From the NCBI GenBank assembly GCA_963575745.1, contig CAUYUJ010000203.1:248001-312000 (forward strand): a stretch of DNA of 64,000 nucleotides, given 5' to 3'. A program made the position numbers and the translations under genes. The notes under the pieces are model-generated. The model did not search any database. It was not told the origin of the DNA and saw nothing but the letters and a program-made list of their open reading frames with translations. Source of the stretch: Prorocentrum cordatum (taxonomy: Eukaryota). Position 1 is the stretch's first letter; every line of letters starts with the position of its first letter. Below, piece by piece: positions 304-62,990 of the stretch.

Positions 304-403
304 NNNNNNNNNNNNNNNNNNNNNNNNNNNNNNNNNNNNNNNNNNNNNNNNNNNNNNNNNNNNNNNNNNNNNNNNNNNNNNNNNNNNNNNNNNNNNNNNN
401 NNN
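304..403. other. Assembly gap (100 N)
   Basis: Run of N characters. Confidence 0.99.
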
Positions 404-3511: not shown

Positions 3512-4098
3512 CCCAACCATCCTGTGGTGTTGGGTCCTCGTTTTGGAGAGACAGCGCCCCGAGTTCCTGCCCCCGCTGCCCCCTCCCCCTCCTCCCTCCT
3601 CCCCTTCCTTGCCTCTGCCCTCCGCATGTTCTGTTTCATCACCCCCCTCACTTTGGCACACCCCTCGCACGTTTCGTGGCCCCATAGGGAGCTCCATCGA
3701 AGGCGCCAGTGGCAGGGTCCGCATGCGTTCCCCGCCCATGTCGGCACACCCCTCACACGTTTCGTGGCCACATAGGAAGCTCCACCGAAGGCCTCGGTGG
3801 CAGGGTCCTCCTTTGGTTTCCCGCCCTTTTCGGCACACCCCTCTCACGTTTCGTGGCCCCATAGGAAGATCCACCGAAGGCCCTAGTGGCAGGGTCCGCA
3901 TGCGGTTCCCCGCCCATTTCGGCACACCACTCACACGCTTCGTGGCCCCATAGGGAGCTCCACTGAAGGCCTCAGTGGCAGGCTCTGCATGCAAACCCCG
4001 CCCATTTCAGCACACCCCTCACACGCTTCGTGGCCCCATGGGGAGGCCCGTCGAACGATGGACCCAGAAAACAGTATCCACAACTGTTTATGGTTGGG
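3512..4098 (-). mobile_element. Non-autonomous element with CCCAACCAT inverted ends and ~5 copies of an 88-89 bp tandem unit
   Basis: CCCAACCAT (3512-3520) and ATGGTTGGG (4090-4098) are inverted. The unit anchor CACGT/CACGC recurs at 3668, 3756, 3845, 3934 and 4022. Both ends are shared with 19839-21359. Confidence 0.75.
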
Positions 4099-19838: not shown

Positions 19839-21359
19839 CACAACCTTATGCAACTGCGAGTGCCGCATTGTGGGTACAACTTTCGGTGGAGCTCCTTATG
19901 GGGCCACGACCCGTGTGAGGGGCGTGTCGAATTGGGCGCGGTGCTGTCATGCGAACCCTCCCACTGGAGCCTTCGGTGGAGTATCCTCGGGGGCCACGAA
20001 ACGTGTGAGGGGGTGTACCGAATTGGGCGCGGTGGTGCCATGCGAACTCTCCCACTGGAGCCTTCGGTGGAACTCCTTATATTATGGGGTGCGCCGAAAT
20101 GACGGTGGAACTGCATGCGAACTCTGCCATTGGGGCCTTCGGTGGAGCTCCCTATGGGGCCACGAACCGTATGAGGAATGCGCCCGAAATGAAGGTGGAA
20201 CTGCATGCGAACCCTGCCAAGAATCCTTCGGTGGAACTCCCTAAGGGGCCACGAACCGTGTGAGAGGGGCACAGACATGGGGGCGGAACTGCATGCGAAC
20301 CCTGCCGCCGGGGCCTTCGGAGGAGCTCCCCATGGGGCCACGAACCTTGTGAGGGGTGCGCCGAAACGAAGGTGGAACTGCATGCGGACCCTGCCTCTGG
20401 GGCCTTCGATGGAGCTCGCTAGGGCCACGAACCGTGTGAAGGGTGCGCCGAAATGAATGTGGAACTGCATGCGACCCCTGCCACTGGGGGCTTGAGGGTG
20501 GAACTGCATGCGGACCCTGCCACTGGGGCATTCGATGGAGCCCCCCACGGGGCCACGAAGCGTGTGAGGGGTGCGCCGAAATGAGGGTAGAACTGCATGA
20601 GGACCCTGCCACTGAGGCATTCGATGGAGCCCCCCATGGGGCCATGAAGCGTGTGATGGGTGTGCCGAAATGGGGGTGGAACCGCATGCGACCCTGCCTC
20701 TGGGGCCTTCGGTGGGGCCCTCTGTGGGGCCACGAAGCGTGTGAGCGCTGCGCCGGAAAGGACATGGAACCGCCATGCGGACCCTGCCAATGGCGCCTAG
20801 CTCCCCATGGGGCCACGAAGCGTGTGAGGGGTGTAACGTGTGAGGCGTGTGCCGAAATGGGGGTGGAACCGCATGTGGACCCTGCCACTGGCGCCTTCGG
20901 TGGGGCCCCGTATGCCGAAATGGGGGTGGAACCGAATGCGGACCCTGCCACTGGGGCCTTCGGTGGGGCCCTCTGTGGGGCCACGAAACGCATGAGGTGT
21001 GTGCCCAAATCGGGTGGAAACGCATGCGGACCCTGCCGCTAGGGCCTTCGGTGGGAACGCATGTTGGGGCCACGAAACGTGTGAGGGGTGTGCCGAAATG
21101 GGGATGGAACCGCATGCGTGCCCTGCCACTGGGGCCTTCGGTGAGGCTCCCTGTGGGGCCACGAAACGTGTGAGGGGTGTGCCAAAATGGGCACGGAACC
21201 GCATGCGGACCCCGCCACTGGGGCATTCGGTGAAGCTCCCTGTGGGGTCACGACGGAGGAGGGAGGGAAGGAGTAAGGAAGGAGGGAGGGGAGGAGGGAG
21301 GGAGGGAACGCGGGGACCGTCTCTTCAAAATGGGGACGCAACACCACAGGATGGTTGGG
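19839..21359 (+). mobile_element. Second, inverted copy of the 3512-4098 element with ~15 copies of the 88-89 bp unit
   Basis: GGGGCCACGAAACGTGTGAGGGG array. The end CAACACCACAGGATGGTTGGG matches the reverse complement of 3512-3532, and 19839-19889 aligns with the reverse complement of 4048-4098. Confidence 0.8.
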
Positions 21360-26759: not shown

Positions 26760-27860
<1,101 letters not shown>

Positions 27861-28009: not shown

Positions 28010-28930
28010 CAATGGTGCCCCTGGCAGTGTCTGGCGACTAGGAGGCCCGGGTCGACTCCTCTTTGGGAAGCCAAAATGCTGCCCCTGGCAGCGTTTGGTG
28101 ACTATGAAGCCCCTGGTGGACCCCCCCTGGGGCTCCCAAATGATGCCCCTGGCAGCGTTTTGTGACCATGAGGCTCTCAAGAGATACATGTTGGGGACGC
28201 CAAACGGCAATTCTAGCTGAGGCGTCCCACCAAAATCGGCGCGAACGGGCTCGTGAGATCAGCCAGGGTGGCTCCCCCTTGGGGCTCCCAAGTGATGCCC
28301 CTGGCAGCGTTTTGTGACCATGAGGCTCTCAAGAGATACATGTTGGGGAGCGCCAAACGGCAATTCTAGCTGAGACGTCCCACCAAAATCGGCGCGAACG
28401 GGCTCGTGAGATCAGCCAGGGTGGCTCCCCCTTGGGGCTCCCAAATGATGCCCCTGGCAGCGTTTTGCGACCATGAGGCTCTCAAGAGATACATGTTGGG
28501 GAGCCAAACGGCAATTCTAGCTGAGGCGTCCCACCAAAATCGGCGCGAACGGGCTCGTGAGATCAGCCAGGGTGGCTCCCCCTTGGGGCTCCCAAATGAT
28601 GCCCCTGGCAGCGTTTTGTGACCATGAGGCTCTCAAGAGAGACATGTTGGGGAGGCCAAACGGCAATTTTAGCTGAGACGTCCCACCAAAATCGGCGCGA
28701 ACGGGCTCGTGAGATCAGCCAGGGTGGCTCCCCCTTGGGGCTCCCAAATGATGCCCCTGGCAGCGTTTTGTGACCATGAGGCTCTCAAGAGAGACATGTT
28801 GGGGAGGCCAAACGGCAATTCTAGCTGAGACGTCCCACCAAAATCGGCGCGAACGGGCTCGTGAGATCAGCCAGGGTGGCTCCCCCTTGGGGCTCCCAAA
28901 TGATGCCCCTGGCAGCGTTTTGTGATCATG
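28010..28930. repeat. ~152 bp near-identical tandem repeat (5 full copies plus partials) flanked by TGAG-rich tracts
   Basis: TGATGCCCCTGG at 28141, 28293, 28446, 28597, 28749 and 28901. Confidence 0.95.
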
Positions 28931-28984
28931 AGAGAGTGTGAGTGTGAGTGAATGTGACTGTGAGTGAGTCTGAGTGAGAGTGAG

Positions 28985-32961: not shown

Positions 32962-33635
32962 GTGCTGATGATGATGTTGGTGATGATGATATCGATAGAG
33001 AGACCGAATGTGATATCGATAGTGAGACCGAATGTGAGATCGATTGTGAGATCGATAGAGAAATCGATAGTGAGACCGAAAGTGAGATTGATTGTGAGAT
33101 CGATTGTGAGATCGATAGTAAGATCGATTGTGAGATCGATTGTGATATCGATAATGAGATCGATAGTGAGACCGAATGTGAGATCGATAGTGAGATCGAT
33201 AGTGAGATCGATAGTGAGATCGATAGTGAGACCGAATGTGAGATCGATGGTGAGATCGATAGTGATATCGACAGTGAGATCGATAGTGAGACCGAATGTG
33301 AGATCGATAGTGAAATCGATAGTGAGACCGATTGTGAGATCGATTGTGAGATGGATTGTGATATCGATAATGAGATCGATAGTGAGACCGAATGTGAGAT
33401 CGATTATGAGATCGATAGTGAGATCGATAGTGAGATCGATAGTGAGACCGAATGTGAGATCGATTGTGAGATCGATAGTGATATCGATAGTGAGATCGAT
33501 AGTGAGACCGAATGTGAGATCGATAGGGGAAATCGATAGTGAGACCGAATGGGAGATCGATAGTGAGATCGATAGTGAGACCGAATGTGAGATCGATAGT
33601 GAGATCGATAGTGATATCGAGAGTGAGATCGATCG
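32877..33635. repeat. (GAT)n grading into a 12-mer minisatellite (GAGATCGATAGT / GAGACCGAATGT)
   Basis: Direct reading; dense ATCGAT palindromes. Confidence 0.95.
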
Positions 33636-33899: not shown

Positions 33900-36301
33900 G
33901 GTCCCCGAGCGAAAGAAACCCGACAAGGACCCCCCAAGGATGCCAGAACTCCCCGGGCCAGTTTTCAAGACCCCAAGAAGGCCCCAAGCCGGTCCAAGCA
34001 AGCCCCGCATCGCTGAAAGATCGGTCCAAGACGCCCAAGATGGCCTCCAGTCGGCCGAACAAGCACCCAAGACATCCCAAGAGGCCATCAAGAGCATTCC
34101 TAAGAGGGCTTCGAGAGGTCAGAAGGATCAATGCTTCGTAGTTTCAATCAATGTTCTGTGGGTTTTCCACGTTTTGAATTTCCCACGCTTCAACACGTCC
34201 CAAGAGGTCCCCAAGACCTCCCCAAGACGGCGACAGAGACCCCCAAGAGGGCCCGAAGACGGCCCAAGAGGCGCCCAAGACAGACAGAGGGGGAACCCGG
34301 AGGCCCCAAGAGGCCCCCAAGAGGTTCCAAGAGGCCCCAAAGAGGCCCCACGAGGCCCAACAGATGCCTCAAAACAACACCCCAAAGCCTCAGAACTGCC
34401 TCTAGGAGGCCCCTGACAGACCTCGACGAAATCCGGACGAATATCCAAGAGGCGTCGGACCCACTACCCGGGCACGGTGGCGGGATGGGCCGAAGGCCAT
34501 TAGATCCGCCGCCCCCTGTGGTCTTGCCACAGGGGTGCACGGCGTGCTGGATGTTTCAGGTTTTGGTTTTGGTTCTTATTCTAAAAGAACTCCCCAGTGG
34601 GCTTCGGCCCGTCCCGCCGGCCACCCGCAAGTTTCCGAAAATCCATCTGTCAATGCCTTTGTTGCCCCAACTTGGCCCAAGATGGCCTCCAAGACGGCCA
34701 AAATGGCCCAAGATGGCCTCCAAGATGCTTCCAAGACGGCCAAGATGGCCTCCAAGACGGGTAAGATGGCTCCAAGATGCACCCAAGACGGCCCAAGATG
34801 GCCTCAAGATGGTCTAAGACGGCCCAAAAGGCCCGCAAAAGGCCTCCAAGACGGCCCAAGAGCCCTCCAAGACGCCCTCCAGGAAGGCCCGAATAGGTTA
34901 AATCATTGATTTTCCTTAGGTTTTTCAAGGATTTTGGCATGTTCTTCTTTTCAGCTCTCCGACGGCCCAAGACGGCCCAAGAGGTCCCCAACATCGCCCC
35001 AACAGCACCCAAGAGGCCTCCAAGATGGCCCCATGACGGCCCAAGAGGCCCCCAAGAAGGCCCCAAGAGGGCCTCAAGACGGCCCAAGAGGCCTCCAAGA
35101 CGCCCAAGATGGCCTCCAAGACGGCCAAGATGGCCTCCAAGACGGGTAAGATGGCTCCAAGATGCACCCAAGACGGCCCAAGATGGCCTCAAGATGGTCT
35201 AAGACGGCCCAAAAGGCCCGCAAAAGGCCTCCAAGACGGCCCAAGAGCCCTCCAAGACGCCCTCCAGGAAGGCCCGAATAGGTTACAATCATTGATTTTC
35301 CTTAGGTTTTTCAAGGATTTTGGCATGTTCTTCTTTTCAGCTCTCCGACGGCCCAAGACGGCCCAAGAGGTCCCCAACATCGCCCCAACAGCACCCAAGA
35401 GGCCTCCAAGATGGCCCCATGACGGCCCAAGAGGCCCCCAAGAAGGCCCCAAGAGGGCCTCAAGACGGCCCAAGAGGCCTCCAAGACGCCCAAGATGGCC
35501 TCCAAGACGGCCAAGATGGCCCAAGATGGCCTCCAAGATGCCTCCAAGACGGCCAAGATGGCCTCCAAGACGGGTAAGATGGCTCCAAGATGCACCCAAG
35601 ACGGCCCAAGATGGCCTCAAGATGGTCTAAGACGGCCCAAAAGGCCGGCAAAAGGCCTCCAAGACGGCCCAAGAGCCCTCCAAGACGCCCTCCAGGAAGG
35701 CCCGAATAGGTTAAAATCATTGATTTTCCTTAGGTTTTTGAAGGATTTTGGCATGTTCTTCTTTTCAGCTCTCCGACGGCCCCAGACGGCCCATGAGGTC
35801 CCCAACATCGCCCCAACAGCACCCAAGAGGCCTCCAAGATGGCCCCATGACGGCCCAAGAGGCCCCCAAGAAGGCCCCAAGAGGGCCTCAAGACGGCCCA
35901 AGAGGCCTCCAAGACGCCCAAGATGGCCTCCAAGACGGCCAAGATGGCCCAAGATGGCCTCCAAGATGCCTCCAAGACGGCCAAAATGGCCTCCAAGGCG
36001 GGTAAGATGGCTCCAATATGCACCCAAGACGGCCCAAGATAAACCCAGAGTAGCCACAAAGGCACTCAAGAGACCTCCTCCTCCATTGCCCCCCTTCCTA
36101 TCTCTCCTCTCCTCCCCGTCCTCCCCCACGTGTTCCCCGAAGGCTGTAAAGACCGATTCGGGGAACATATGGCCCAATAACTTGGCAGACCTCTGGCCAC
36201 AGCAGTCGGCCGCATCGGCGCTTCCGAAAGGGCAGGGGGCGGCGGTGATTCGCCGTAGGCGTCTTCGATATGGGGTGGCGGAATGAGCGAGGCGATTCAA
36301 T
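33900..36301 (+). mobile_element. CCAAGA-rich element(s) with a 385-428 bp higher-order tandem repeat and structured GGYGGCGG-hairpin termini
   Basis: GAATAGGTTA anchor at 34891, 35276 and 35704. Hairpin motifs at 34466-34550 and 36237-36301. Confidence 0.6.
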
Positions 36302-60559: not shown

Positions 60560-60830
60560 TCACCATCAGTAACCATCACCACCACATCATCACCATCATC
60601 ACCATGACCATGTCCATTTCCCATGACCATGTGTATCATCATCATCAGCAGCAGCAGCAGCAGTATCTTCATCACCATCATCGCAATCGCCAGCATCATC
60701 ATCATCATCAGCAGCATCATCATCACCGCCACAACCAACATCATAATCACCATGATTGTCGGCATCAACATCATAACCATCATCATTCTGATCATCATCA
60801 TTATTACTGGTGTTATTGTTGTTATTTCTA
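60560..60830. repeat. Degenerate (CAT)n tract
   Basis: Direct reading. Confidence 0.9.
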
Positions 60831-61233
60831 TAAGTAACATGATGATATTACTGGCCGGCATGATGAATATGATAATGATTGTTTTCCTCGCCATCAGAGC
60901 CAATAAGCAGGGATAAATTTCGCCCTGCAAAAAAATATTCGAGTCAATAGGGTGGCTCGGCGCAGAGAGCGAGGCATCGTGTCTAGAACCGCGCGAGGGG
61001 TGGGCAATTAAAGAAAAAATCCGAGTCCCTACGCATGGTAAGGCGAATGCACTCATTCCCCATTAGCCTCACGGCGGTGCTGTGTGGGGTGCTGCACGCA
61101 CGGGGTACGCCGCGTTGCCCATTAAGCTTCGGAGCCACAGCGCGGATGATGCAAGATGCTCGAGCGGGAGGAGGTGGAGGAGGAAGAGGAAACATAGTCA
61201 GCAGTGAAAAGAAGAAAGAAAAAAACCATAGGC

Positions 61234-62307
61234 TCATTCAGTGGTGGCCTCGGCCACTGTTTCGCGGCCAAGGAGTCCTCCCGAGGGCAGGGACGTGTAG
61301 GACAGCGCGTACTCTTCGTTAGTCATGTCCTCGGACTGGCTCTTCACGCTGAGATGTTGCACGGCCAAGGAGCCCTCCCAGTCGTTGGACATGGACGTGT
61401 AGTGCATAGCGTGCTCTTCGTTGGTCATGTCCTCGGACTTCCGCTCCACGCTGAAGTGTTTCACGGCCATGTGGTCCTCCCAGTCGTTGGACAGAGACGG
61501 AGAGCACTCGTCGTTTGTCATGTCCTCGGCCTTCCGCTCCACGCTGAAGTGTTTCGCGGCCACGTGGTCCTCCCAGCCGTTGGACAGGAATGTGTTCTCG
61601 GACTTCCGCTCCACGCTGAGGTGTTTCACGGCCAGGTGATCCTCCCAGTCGTTGGACAGGAACGTGTAGATCGGTGTGTACTCTTCGTGGATCAGGTCTT
61701 TAGGCTTCCGCTCGATGCTGAAGTGTTGCACGGCCAAGTAGTCCTCCCAGTCGTTGGACAGGGACGTGTAGATCGAGGCGTACTCTACGGCCAGGTAGTC
61801 CCCCCAGTTGTTGGACAGGAACGTGCAGATCGAAGCGTACTCTTCGTTAGTCGGGTGCTCGGACTTCCGCTCCATGCTGAAGTGTTTCACGGCCAGGTTG
61901 TCCTCCCAGTCGTTGAACAAGGACGTGTCGAGCGAGCCGTACTCTTCGTTGACCGTGTCCACGGACTTGCGCTTCACGCTGACGTGGTTCCCGGTCCGGG
62001 GGTCCTCCCACTCGTTGGACAGGGACATGTATAGCGAGGCGTCCTCTTCGTTAGTTATGTCCTTGGACTTCCGCTCCACGCTGACGTGTTTCACGGGCAC
62101 GTAGTCCTCCCAGTCGTGGGACAGAAACGCGTAGGACGAAGCGTACTTTTCGTTATTGATGTCCTCGGACTTGCGCGCCACGCTGAAGCCCCTGGCCTGC
62201 ACTTGCACATCCACGCTGCGCGGCGACGCGCCGTGCGGCGCACGCGCGGGCACGCCGAGTCGGCGGCGCGTCTGCCCACCGCACCATGCCGCGAGGAGCC
62301 ATTGCAT
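61234..62307 (-). CDS. HSP90: ORF built from ~10 tandem copies of a 34-aa Hsp90 middle-domain segment (not a full-length Hsp90)
   Basis: Unit consensus [34 protein letters not shown] matches the conserved cytosolic Hsp90 stretch ...[29 protein letters not shown]. 102-nt period; array at ~61258-62187. Confidence 0.85.
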
Positions 62308-62402
62308 GAGACACCACGCTCTCTGCCTGTTCGCAAGCCGAGAGAAGGAGAGAAGTGGAGGCCGCTGTGTCGGCGATGTCCTGAGCAGATGGCGGCCTTA
62401 TA

Positions 62403-62407
62403 TGATA

Positions 62408-62441
<34 letters not shown>

Positions 62442-62460
62442 GAATGATGATGATGACGCT

Positions 62461-62521
<61 letters not shown>

Positions 62522-62891
62522 GTCGTCCTCCGCATGAATGGGATAACCATCGCCGTGGTCACTACCCACATGCTCACCATCACCACCGCCATCACCATCG
62601 ACATGACCAACATTAGAATCGTCAACGTAGGCGTCATAATATCCGTCGTCGTCGTTAGCAACATCATCATCATCATCACCATCAACATCATCATCATCAT
62701 CACCATCAACTTCACCATCGCCATAACCATCATGGTCGGCAACAGCACACTCAGCATCAACATCATCATCAATGTCACCATCATCACAATCATCAACATC
62801 ATCATCACCACAACCGTCATCATCGTCACCAGCAGCATCAGTGCCATCAGCACAAACATGATCATCATCAACATCATCATCATCATCACCC

Positions 62892-62924
<33 letters not shown>

Positions 62925-62990
62925 CCCTCAACATCATCATCACCATCACCATCAACATCACCATCGTCATCATCATCAGCATCAACATCG
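62403..62990. repeat. (GAT)n followed by long (CAT)n tracts
   Basis: Direct reading. Confidence 0.95.

What the first reader, a model, noticed from the sequence alone, without database searches (positions are those of the whole stretch)
61258..62187. A repeat protein made by polymerising a 34-codon piece of Hsp90
Seen: ~10 head-to-tail, substantially diverged copies of [30 protein letters not shown], with no stop over ~300 codons. The three internal deletions (the fusion of units 4/5, -10 aa in unit 7, -3 aa in unit 8) all keep frame, and only the last unit runs out of register. No other Hsp90 sequence flanks the array. Known: this is the conserved start of the Hsp90 middle domain. Inference: a chaperone fragment was amplified, by rolling-circle reverse transcription of a circularised exon/RNA or by DNA-level slippage, and may be maintained as a new tandem-repeat protein. 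Such a protein could present a multivalent Hsp90 surface to co-chaperones.
Basis: partly seen in the sequence, partly recalled or inferred. Interest (0 to 1): 0.88.

Follow-up and report, generated by a model that had tools for sequence, protein, structure and literature searches.

The report
Decaying Hsp90-fragment tandem repeat
A 102-base piece of the Hsp90 chaperone gene really has been copied about ten times head to tail here, but the copies change as unconstrained DNA does, so it is most likely a decaying gene-fragment repeat and not a new protein.

Summary
On the minus strand, 62188..61258 carries about ten diverged 102-nt units (69-90% alike). Each matches Hsp90 Pfam positions 91-126, and they lie in a 387-codon stop-to-stop frame.

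The reading "maintained as a new repeat protein" is not supported:
- dN/dS among units is 0.89 (median pairwise 0.96). Differences from the consensus fall 54/28/27 on codon positions 1/2/3.
- A neutral simulation leaves the frame free of stops in 8% of runs. One antisense frame is almost as open.
- Contigs of two other organism labels differ from the window by 2 syn:6 nonsyn and 5 syn:18 nonsyn changes, against 22% synonymous sites. One contig carries a net -17 nt indel.
- No confident fold was predicted, mean pLDDT 45.5.

The window is packed with other mini- and microsatellites and shows no Pfam domain elsewhere.

Best reading (0.8): a neutral minisatellite seeded by an Hsp90 pseudogene fragment.

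Side observation: at least eight other public predicted proteins carry short tandem arrays of this Hsp90 segment, most with other unit boundaries where these could be read.

Transcription and the amplification mechanism remain open.

The parts
61258..62188 (-). Tandem array of about ten diverged 102-nt units derived from Hsp90 (Pfam HSP90 profile positions 91-126)
   Evidence: TRF; Pfam; nhmmer unit profile; edge alignment
61234..62397 (-). Stop-to-stop open frame of 387 codons containing the array; first ATG at 62303-62305; stop TGA at 61234-61236
61786..61869 (-). Unit 4, 28 codons, fused in frame to unit 5 (61711-61785, 25 codons); together -45 nt
61537..61608 (-). Unit 7, 24 codons (-30 nt)
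61444..61536 (-). Unit 8, 31 codons (-9 nt)
61258..61341 (-). Unit 10: in register for 18 codons, then a net -5 nt, so the frame leaves the Hsp90 register and stops 24 nt past the array
61224..61254 (-). Possible decayed start of an 11th unit (marginal)
   Evidence: local alignment against the expected continuation of the unit, P(shuffle)=0.052
61198..62034 (+). Antisense frame also open for 278 codons (control for 'no stops')
62402..62989 (.). Long ATG/ATC-type trinucleotide/hexanucleotide microsatellites directly beside the array
60572..60801 (.). ATC/ACCATC-type microsatellites on the other side of the array

Best explanation
This is a neutral minisatellite seeded by a fragment of an Hsp90 gene copy, a pseudogene fragment covering the first about 34 codons of the middle domain. 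The fragment was amplified at the DNA level to about ten head-to-tail copies, by replication slippage or unequal exchange, in a genome region that makes tandem arrays of every size. The copies have since drifted apart without homogenisation and without selection on the encoded peptide.

The long open frame is a leftover. The founder unit had no stop in that frame, the DNA is G+C-rich, and the frame ends at the first frame-shifting indel.

Shown: the origin from Hsp90, the tandem structure, the neutral substitution pattern, and the presence of the locus in contigs of other runs. Inferred: the DNA-level amplification route and the absence of function.
For: 1. Origin. Pfam HSP90 E=4.4e-27, 7 stretches at profile positions 91-126. 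PDB matches to HSP90-alpha residues 299-336. The closest full Hsp90s carry the same 34-residue segment, among them a record named HSP90 of Symbiodinium natans.

2. No constraint among units.
- Nei-Gojobori summed over all pairs of 10 units gives pN/pS 0.90, Jukes-Cantor omega 0.89 and a median pairwise value of 0.96.
- The 109 differences from the consensus over 296 codons fall 54/28/27 on codon positions 1/2/3.

3. The open frame is not surprising. In 20,000 neutral simulations with the observed substitution spectrum, the Hsp90 frame gains a mean of 2.39 stops and stays open in 8.4% of runs. The antisense frame a0 has the same expectation (2.47) and shows 1 stop.

4. No constraint between organisms.
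- Differences listed for contigs of run X3 inside the frame: 2 synonymous, 6 nonsynonymous.
- Differences listed for run X10: 5 synonymous, 18 nonsynonymous, on codon positions 8/8/7.
- Synonymous sites make up 22% of the frame.
- P0122, a 95-residue predicted protein 94% identical to the frame's C-terminal end, has 6 residue changes. Three of them are the same changes as in X3.

5. One X10 contig (386 nt, depth 6.85) lacks 15 and 2 nt in unit 2. That net -17 breaks the frame there.

6. Context.
- TRF at score 200 or more lists 40 rows in the window: 89-, 152-, 386/428- and 12-nt arrays, a (CT) run of 558 copies and many trinucleotide runs.
- Of 156 ORFs of 160 aa or more, 148 were scanned against Pfam (the eight from 60442 onward were not sent). 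141 had no match and 7 had only matches below the curated cut-offs.
- No Rfam family was found.

7. AlphaFold2 on the single sequence gave mean pLDDT 45.5, with 0 of 387 residues at 70 or above.

8. The array is not an assembly artefact. X1 contigs cover 60900-61659 (3 differences) and 61886-62388 (0 differences). X3 contigs cover 61098-61786, 61821-61948 and 61919-62352.
Against: - The three internal length changes (-45, -30, -9 nt) are all multiples of three, a naive chance of 1/27. Two of the three X10 indels inside the in-register part (+6, -15) are multiples of three as well. In the flank downstream of the stop, only 1 of 6 listed indels is. Counting the frame-breaking events too, 5 of 7 are multiples of three (my binomial estimate: P about 0.045). 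This could mean past selection for an open frame. It could also mean a trinucleotide-biased indel process, since the window is full of period-3 microsatellites.
- Sites vary unevenly: 44 invariant sites against 32.6 expected. Shared ancestry of units inflates this figure.
- A frame open from an ATG for 357 codons exists, and a predicted protein from another data set (P0122) ends at the same stop.
- The X10 pieces are only 90-95% alike and could be a paralogous locus and not the ortholog. Six rows of the difference table were not shown by the tool.
- Whether the locus is transcribed was not settled.
Confidence: 0.8

Rival explanations
1. An expressed tandem-repeat protein: a young, loosely constrained gene. 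The frame is translated from the ATG at 62303-62305 into about 357 residues of Hsp90-derived units. Selection acts mainly on keeping the frame open, not on the residues.
For: - The frame is open for 387 codons and has an ATG.
- Internal deletions of -45, -30 and -9 nt are all in frame.
- Indels that are multiples of three are more frequent inside the array than in the downstream flank.
- P0122, a predicted protein in another data set, shares the C-terminal 95 residues and the stop.
Against: - Omega is 0.89-0.96 among units and about 1 between organisms.
- There is no third-position excess of differences.
- The antisense frame is nearly as open, and neutral P(no stop) is 0.084.
- One contig of run X10 has a net -17 nt indel.
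- P0122 starts at an internal Met, not at the frame's start.
- pLDDT is 45.5.
- No near-length homologue with the same unit structure turned up among 358 hits (120 listed) or among 106 hits.
Confidence: 0.08
2. A functional non-coding RNA source. The array, whose + strand is antisense to hsp90 message, would be transcribed and would yield antisense or small RNAs that act on the very abundant hsp90 mRNA. This would be in the manner of pseudogene-derived small-RNA loci.
For: - Short contigs that run on into true Hsp90 coding sequence lie on several units at 90-95% identity, so stretches of about 50 nt stay close to the real gene.
- The locus occurs in contigs of several runs of one organism label whose kind is not on record.
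Against: - No strand information, no small-RNA data and no proof of transcription are available.
- Units are 69-90% alike and drift freely, with no sign of conservation of any subsegment beyond what shared ancestry gives.
Confidence: 0.05
3. The array came in as, or grew from, a small circular molecule: a circular DNA of repeat units, or a rolling-circle cDNA of a circularised hsp90 RNA piece. It did not arise by slippage in place.
For: - The recognisable array starts at unit phase 89 (62188) and ends at phase 88 (61258). That is a whole number of units in a permuted register with no Hsp90 flank, as a circle opened at one point would give.
- Other public proteins show independent arrays of the same Hsp90 segment with other unit boundaries.
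Against: - The 3' flank shows a marginal continuation into an 11th unit (P=0.052), which would remove the coincidence of phase.
- No spliced-leader relic was found: 0 matches at up to 3 mismatches in the window.
- The parental gene and its introns could not be examined.
- The window makes many unrelated arrays of similar period, so a special route is not needed.
Confidence: 0.07

Closest known systems
Cytosolic Hsp90 (Pfam PF00183), dinoflagellate-type sequences such as the record named HSP90 of Symbiodinium natans (P0177)
   Same: Each unit is homologous to about 34 residues at the start of the middle domain. The segment in P0177 and in many marine transcriptome Hsp90s is nearly the same as the unit consensus.
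   Different: Only profile positions 91-126 of 518 are present. There is no ATPase domain, no rest of the middle domain and no C-terminal domain anywhere in the window.
Gene-fragment-derived minisatellites or satellites and tandemly amplified pseudogene fragments (general class; recalled, not from a paper read here)
   Same: Head-to-tail units of about 100 nt derived from a coding sequence, drifting neutrally, in a repeat-rich and gene-poor stretch.
   Different: The source is a chaperone gene segment, and the frame happens to have stayed open across about ten units.
Dinoflagellate retrogenes and processed pseudogenes tagged by spliced-leader relics, and tandem hsp90 gene arrays. PMC5585692, PMC6050394 and PMC12014239 were seen as search listing and abstracts only; passages of PMC12584245 were read.
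   Same: hsp90 is a multi-copy, tandemly arrayed gene in dinoflagellates: 9-27 copies in six genomes according to the passages read in PMC12584245. Retroposition is common in that group according to the abstracts. Decayed Hsp90 copies are seen in the DNA-type run X3.
   Different: Here a sub-gene piece is repeated, not whole genes. No spliced-leader relic is present in the window. That the organism is a dinoflagellate is inferred from the Hsp90 type only.
Other Hsp90-segment arrays in public predicted proteins (P0123, P0126, P0140, P0124, P0176, P0209, P0133, P0154)
   Same: Short tandem repeats of the same Hsp90 region, decayed, with 2-9 unit matches each.
   Different: Unit lengths and boundaries differ where they could be read (about 19, 26 and 55 residues). 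Some sit inside longer decayed Hsp90 copies. None shares this array's VE-RK junction as a 34-residue period. Their DNA and organisms were not available.

Membership tests
Hsp90 chaperone (PF00183 plus GHKL ATPase) | N-terminal GHKL ATP-binding domain | tested here: not met
   Pfam on the frame finds only HSP90 positions 91-126. tblastn of P0011 and P0012 against the window hits only the array.
Hsp90 chaperone (PF00183 plus GHKL ATPase) | Complete middle and C-terminal domains | tested here: not met
   All 7 Pfam stretches map to the same short part of the 518-position profile.
Minisatellite / tandem repeat DNA | Head-to-tail units of constant period in several copies, far beyond chance | tested here: met
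   TRF period 102, scores up to 503. Ten nhmmer unit hits at E of 1e-16 to 1e-29 in the whole window.
Minisatellite / tandem repeat DNA | Neutral divergence of units (no coding constraint) | tested here: met
   Omega 0.89-0.96 and codon-position counts 54/28/27. Between-organism changes are 2:6 and 5:18 syn:nonsyn against 22% synonymous sites.
Processed (retro)pseudogene of a dinoflagellate | Spliced-leader relic upstream | tested here: not met
Processed (retro)pseudogene of a dinoflagellate | Lack of the parental gene's introns, or unit ends at exon ends | not testable with these tools
   No genome is held for the window and the parental hsp90 is not in the window.
Functional tandem-repeat protein | Purifying selection on the residues | tested here: not met
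Functional tandem-repeat protein | Reading frame kept in relatives | tested here: inconclusive
   One X10 contig shows a net -17 nt indel, but it is a single contig of depth 6.85 and possibly paralogous. X3 contigs show no indel inside the frame; their one listed gap is at 61218, downstream of the stop.
Functional tandem-repeat protein | Confidently predicted repeat fold | tested here: not met
   Mean pLDDT 45.5 and pTM 0.44 from a single sequence without an alignment. This is weak evidence.
Functional tandem-repeat protein | Translation (peptides, ribosome footprints) | not testable with these tools
   No such data could be reached.

The most novel reading that the evidence does not exclude
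The first segment of the Hsp90 middle domain may be a recurrent seed of tandem arrays in dinoflagellate-type genomes. At least eight other public arrays exist, with other unit boundaries where these could be read. Under this reading they are made by a specific route, such as small circular DNA or cDNA from the very abundant hsp90 message, and this array is transcribed and acts on hsp90 expression as antisense or small RNA, or is translated.
Probability: 0.1. Interest if true: 0.6.

Novelty: new member of a known kind. Interest (0 to 1): 0.2.

Why it matters
As it stands this is an ordinary product of a repeat-prone genome. It matters mainly as a caution: a long open frame across a tandem array of coding origin is expected by chance in G+C-rich DNA, and gene predictors do call such frames as proteins (P0122, P0123 and others). 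The recurrence of arrays built from this one Hsp90 segment is a small curiosity. A genome-wide census could turn it into a statement about how highly expressed, multi-copy genes seed satellites.

Tried and rejected
- Own genome: none is held, so paralogous arrays and the parental hsp90 could not be sought.
- Sequencing runs: no RNA holder is listed. All four runs laid were contigs. No listed piece spans the whole array, and 61787-61820 has no listed piece in X3. Strand, ends and level of any RNA cannot be told.
- X1 depths: X1 shows short Hsp90-like pieces at word depths in the thousands beside about 7 for the locus. I read that as a hint that X1 is RNA. Its kind is not on record, so I draw nothing on expression from it.
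- Metagenome scan: a 20-nt degenerate pattern across the unit junction gave 65 loci with one match each. None of the 65 matches the unit profile at E<=0.01, so all are chance matches.
- Spliced-leader relic: none found.
- Rfam: 0 families matched.
- Shorter-length homologue search: it returned only P0122 and two Hsp90 fragments, 3 hits among 706 candidates.
- Earlier scan notes: nothing on this genome, on this sequence, or on Hsp90 arrays.
- Circle reading: the whole-number, permuted-register reading of the edges was considered and then weakened by the marginal 11th-unit match.
- Exon reading: the idea that the unit is one exon drew on a table entry '25' for hsp90 introns in PMC2488372.
- P0122 label: the label that the source gives P0122 (a Pyramimonas sp. 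strain) was not found in the taxonomy or in 0 of the papers searched. It does not fit the dinoflagellate-type Hsp90 segment, and I leave this open.
- Literature: searches for dinoflagellate + hsp90 + pseudogene + tandem repeat (204 papers, 20 listed) and for retroposition terms (15 papers, 12 listed) showed no description of sub-gene Hsp90 arrays in what I read. That was passages of PMC12584245, PMC3229502 and PMC2488372, and otherwise abstracts only. Supplements were not opened.

Full report
**What is there**

The feature lies on the minus strand. Tandem Repeats Finder reports a 102-nt period over 61291-62188 with 77-92% matches. A stop-to-stop frame of 387 codons runs 62397..61234 on the minus strand. 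I split it by coordinates into ten units, and a DNA profile built from them finds exactly these ten. The only other matches in the 64 kb window at E<0.1 are weak antisense echoes inside the array.

- Units 4 and 5 are fused (-45 nt).
- Unit 7 lacks 30 nt and unit 8 lacks 9 nt, all in frame.
- Unit 10 loses a net 5 nt and leaves the register. The stop follows 24 nt past the recognisable array.

Units are 69-90% identical to each other. Only a few pairs stand out: U7/U8 at 90%, and U3/U5 and U4/U5 at 88%.

**It is Hsp90**

Pfam HSP90 matches at E=4.4e-27 in 7 stretches, always at profile positions 91-126 of 518. Among solved structures the units align to human HSP90-alpha residues 299-336 and to the equivalent parts of yeast and other Hsp90s.

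The closest full-length Hsp90s in the large protein collections are marine transcriptome proteins, plus a record named HSP90 of Symbiodinium natans. These carry almost the unit consensus at that place.

tblastn with two long Hsp90s finds nothing else of Hsp90 in the window.

Short contigs of the runs laid on the array run on, past the unit end, into letters that translate as the true continuation of Hsp90 (loose ends). So the organism's own hsp90 is 90-95% like parts of the units, and the array derives from the host's gene.

From the Hsp90 type I infer a dinoflagellate or a close relative. This is an inference only. The one near-identical protein on record, P0122, is filed under a prasinophyte label. 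I could not resolve that.

**Is it maintained as a protein?**

Four tests say no.

1. Substitutions among units. Nei-Gojobori counts summed over all unit pairs give pN/pS 0.90, a Jukes-Cantor omega of 0.89 and a median pairwise omega of 0.96. The 109 differences from the consensus over 296 codons fall 54/28/27 on codon positions 1, 2 and 3. There is no third-position excess.

2. The open frame.
- With the observed number and spectrum of substitutions placed at random on consensus units, the Hsp90 frame gains 2.39 stops on average. It stays open in 8.4% of 20,000 runs.
- One antisense frame has the same expectation (2.47) and shows one stop. That frame is open for 278 codons in the window.
- Shared substitutions were counted as independent, so the true chance of an open frame is, if anything, higher.

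3. Differences between organisms.
- Contigs of run X3 (organism label B) differ from the window inside the frame at 8 listed places: 2 synonymous and 6 nonsynonymous.
- Contigs of run X10 (label C) differ at 23 listed places: 5 synonymous and 18 nonsynonymous, on codon positions 8/8/7.
- Synonymous sites are 22% of the frame, so both ratios are what neutrality gives.
- P0122, which is 94% identical to the last 95 residues and ends at the same stop, has 6 residue changes. Three of them are the X3 changes.

4. Indels and fold. One X10 contig lacks 15 and 2 nt within unit 2, a net frameshift. A single-sequence AlphaFold2 model has mean pLDDT 45.5 and no residue at 70 or above. That model is weak evidence.

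**What speaks the other way**

All three internal deletions are multiples of three. So are two of the three X10 indels within the in-register part. Only one of six indels listed in the downstream flank is. Counting the frame-breaking events as well, 5 of 7 are multiples of three (my binomial estimate: P about 0.045).

This could be a trace of selection for an open frame. It could also reflect an indel process biased to triplets in a genome whose microsatellites are mostly of period three. I cannot decide between these.

Site-to-site variation is uneven: 44 invariant sites against 32.6 expected. Shared ancestry of units inflates that figure.

The X10 pieces could come from a paralogous locus, and six rows of the difference table were not shown.

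**Surroundings**

The window is a repeat field. It holds 89-nt arrays at 3641-4045 and 19900-21253, a 152-nt array at 28115-28932 (97% matches) and 386/428-nt arrays at 34674-36040. It also holds a 12-nt array of 54 copies, a (CT) run of 558 copies and many long trinucleotide runs, two of which flank the Hsp90 array.

I scanned 148 of the 156 ORFs of 160 residues or more against Pfam. The eight from 60442 onward were not sent; of these only the array frame was scanned, separately. Of the 148, 141 had no match and 7 had only low-complexity matches below the curated cut-offs. No Rfam family matched. A genome stretch that makes arrays of every period needs no special mechanism to amplify a 102-nt piece.

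**Is the array real DNA?**

Contigs of X1 cover 60900-61659 (3 differences) and 61886-62388 (no difference). Contigs of X3 cover 61098-61786, 61821-61948 and 61919-62352. No listed contig spans the whole array, so the unit number rests on the assembly. With units this diverged, collapse or inflation is unlikely.

**Mechanism**

The recognisable array begins at unit phase 89 (62188) and ends at phase 88 (61258). That is a whole number of units in a permuted register, which a circle opened at one point would produce.

The sequence beyond 61258, however, aligns marginally with the expected start of an 11th unit (shuffle P=0.052). The 5' flank does not align (P=0.37). The coincidence of phase is therefore unreliable.

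No spliced-leader relic is present. The parental gene was not available, so unit ends could not be compared with introns. I therefore prefer DNA-level slippage or unequal exchange, and I keep the circle route as a minor rival.

**Relatives elsewhere**

The search of 1.84 billion representatives gave 106 hits at E<=0.001.
- One is P0122, the counterpart from another data set.
- Eight show short-period tandem copies of this Hsp90 segment, with other periods and boundaries where these could be read, and mostly decayed: P0123 (9 matches), P0126, P0140, P0124 and P0209 (3 each), and P0133, P0176 and P0154 (2 each).
- The rest look like whole-gene-scale duplications or chimeric assemblies.

Amplification of this part of Hsp90 has therefore happened repeatedly. 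My query covered only this part, so I cannot say that it is a hot spot.

A metagenome scan for the unit junction found only chance matches: 65 loci, none matching the unit profile.

**Literature**

In what I read, hsp90 is reported as a tandemly arrayed multi-copy gene in dinoflagellates (passages of PMC12584245), and retroposition as common there (abstracts). I found no description of sub-gene Hsp90 arrays in the two searches or in the passages read.

**Verdict**

The Hsp90 origin is confirmed. The protein reading is not supported. The feature is best described as a neutral, old minisatellite seeded by an Hsp90 pseudogene fragment (confidence 0.8). Transcription and the amplification route remain open.

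Noticed in passing
window 3641-4045 and 19900-21253: An 89-nt tandem repeat family occurs in two blocks about 16 kb apart. Judged by eye from the TRF consensus units, the two blocks are in opposite orientation.
   Followed up: no
window 28115-28932; 34674-36040; 32987-33633; 26764-27857: Further large arrays: 152 nt x 5.4 at 97% matches, 386/428-nt higher-order arrays built of a 32/63-nt unit, a 12-nt unit x 54, and a (CT) run of about 558 copies. Of the 148 long ORFs scanned, 141 have no Pfam match and 7 have only matches below the curated cut-offs.
   Followed up: partly
proteins P0123, P0126, P0140, P0124, P0176, P0209, P0133, P0154 (public predicted proteins, DNA not available): These are independent short tandem arrays of the same Hsp90 segment, with periods of about 19, 26 and 55 residues where they could be read. 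Some lie inside longer decayed Hsp90 copies. P0123 and P0126 share one unit type on two different contigs.
   Followed up: partly
protein P0122: This is the only near-identical protein on record (94% over the last 95 residues, same stop). Its source files it under a Pyramimonas sp. label, although the Hsp90 segment is of the type seen in a Symbiodinium record. The label is not in the taxonomy copy.
   Followed up: partly
window 61244-61257 (+), then 61200-61226: A 14-nt near-perfect palindrome (6-nt arms, 2-nt centre) sits right at the array's 3' edge. On the minus strand it is followed by a T-rich run. It overlaps the possible decayed 11th unit.
   Followed up: no
run X3 and X10 loose ends on window 61444, 61609, 61711: Contigs of the DNA-type run and of organism label C run on into variants of the Hsp90 continuation with altered residues. 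This suggests several decayed hsp90 copies in those genomes.
   Followed up: no
window 304-403: A run of 100 N (scaffold gap) lies near the window's start.
   Followed up: no
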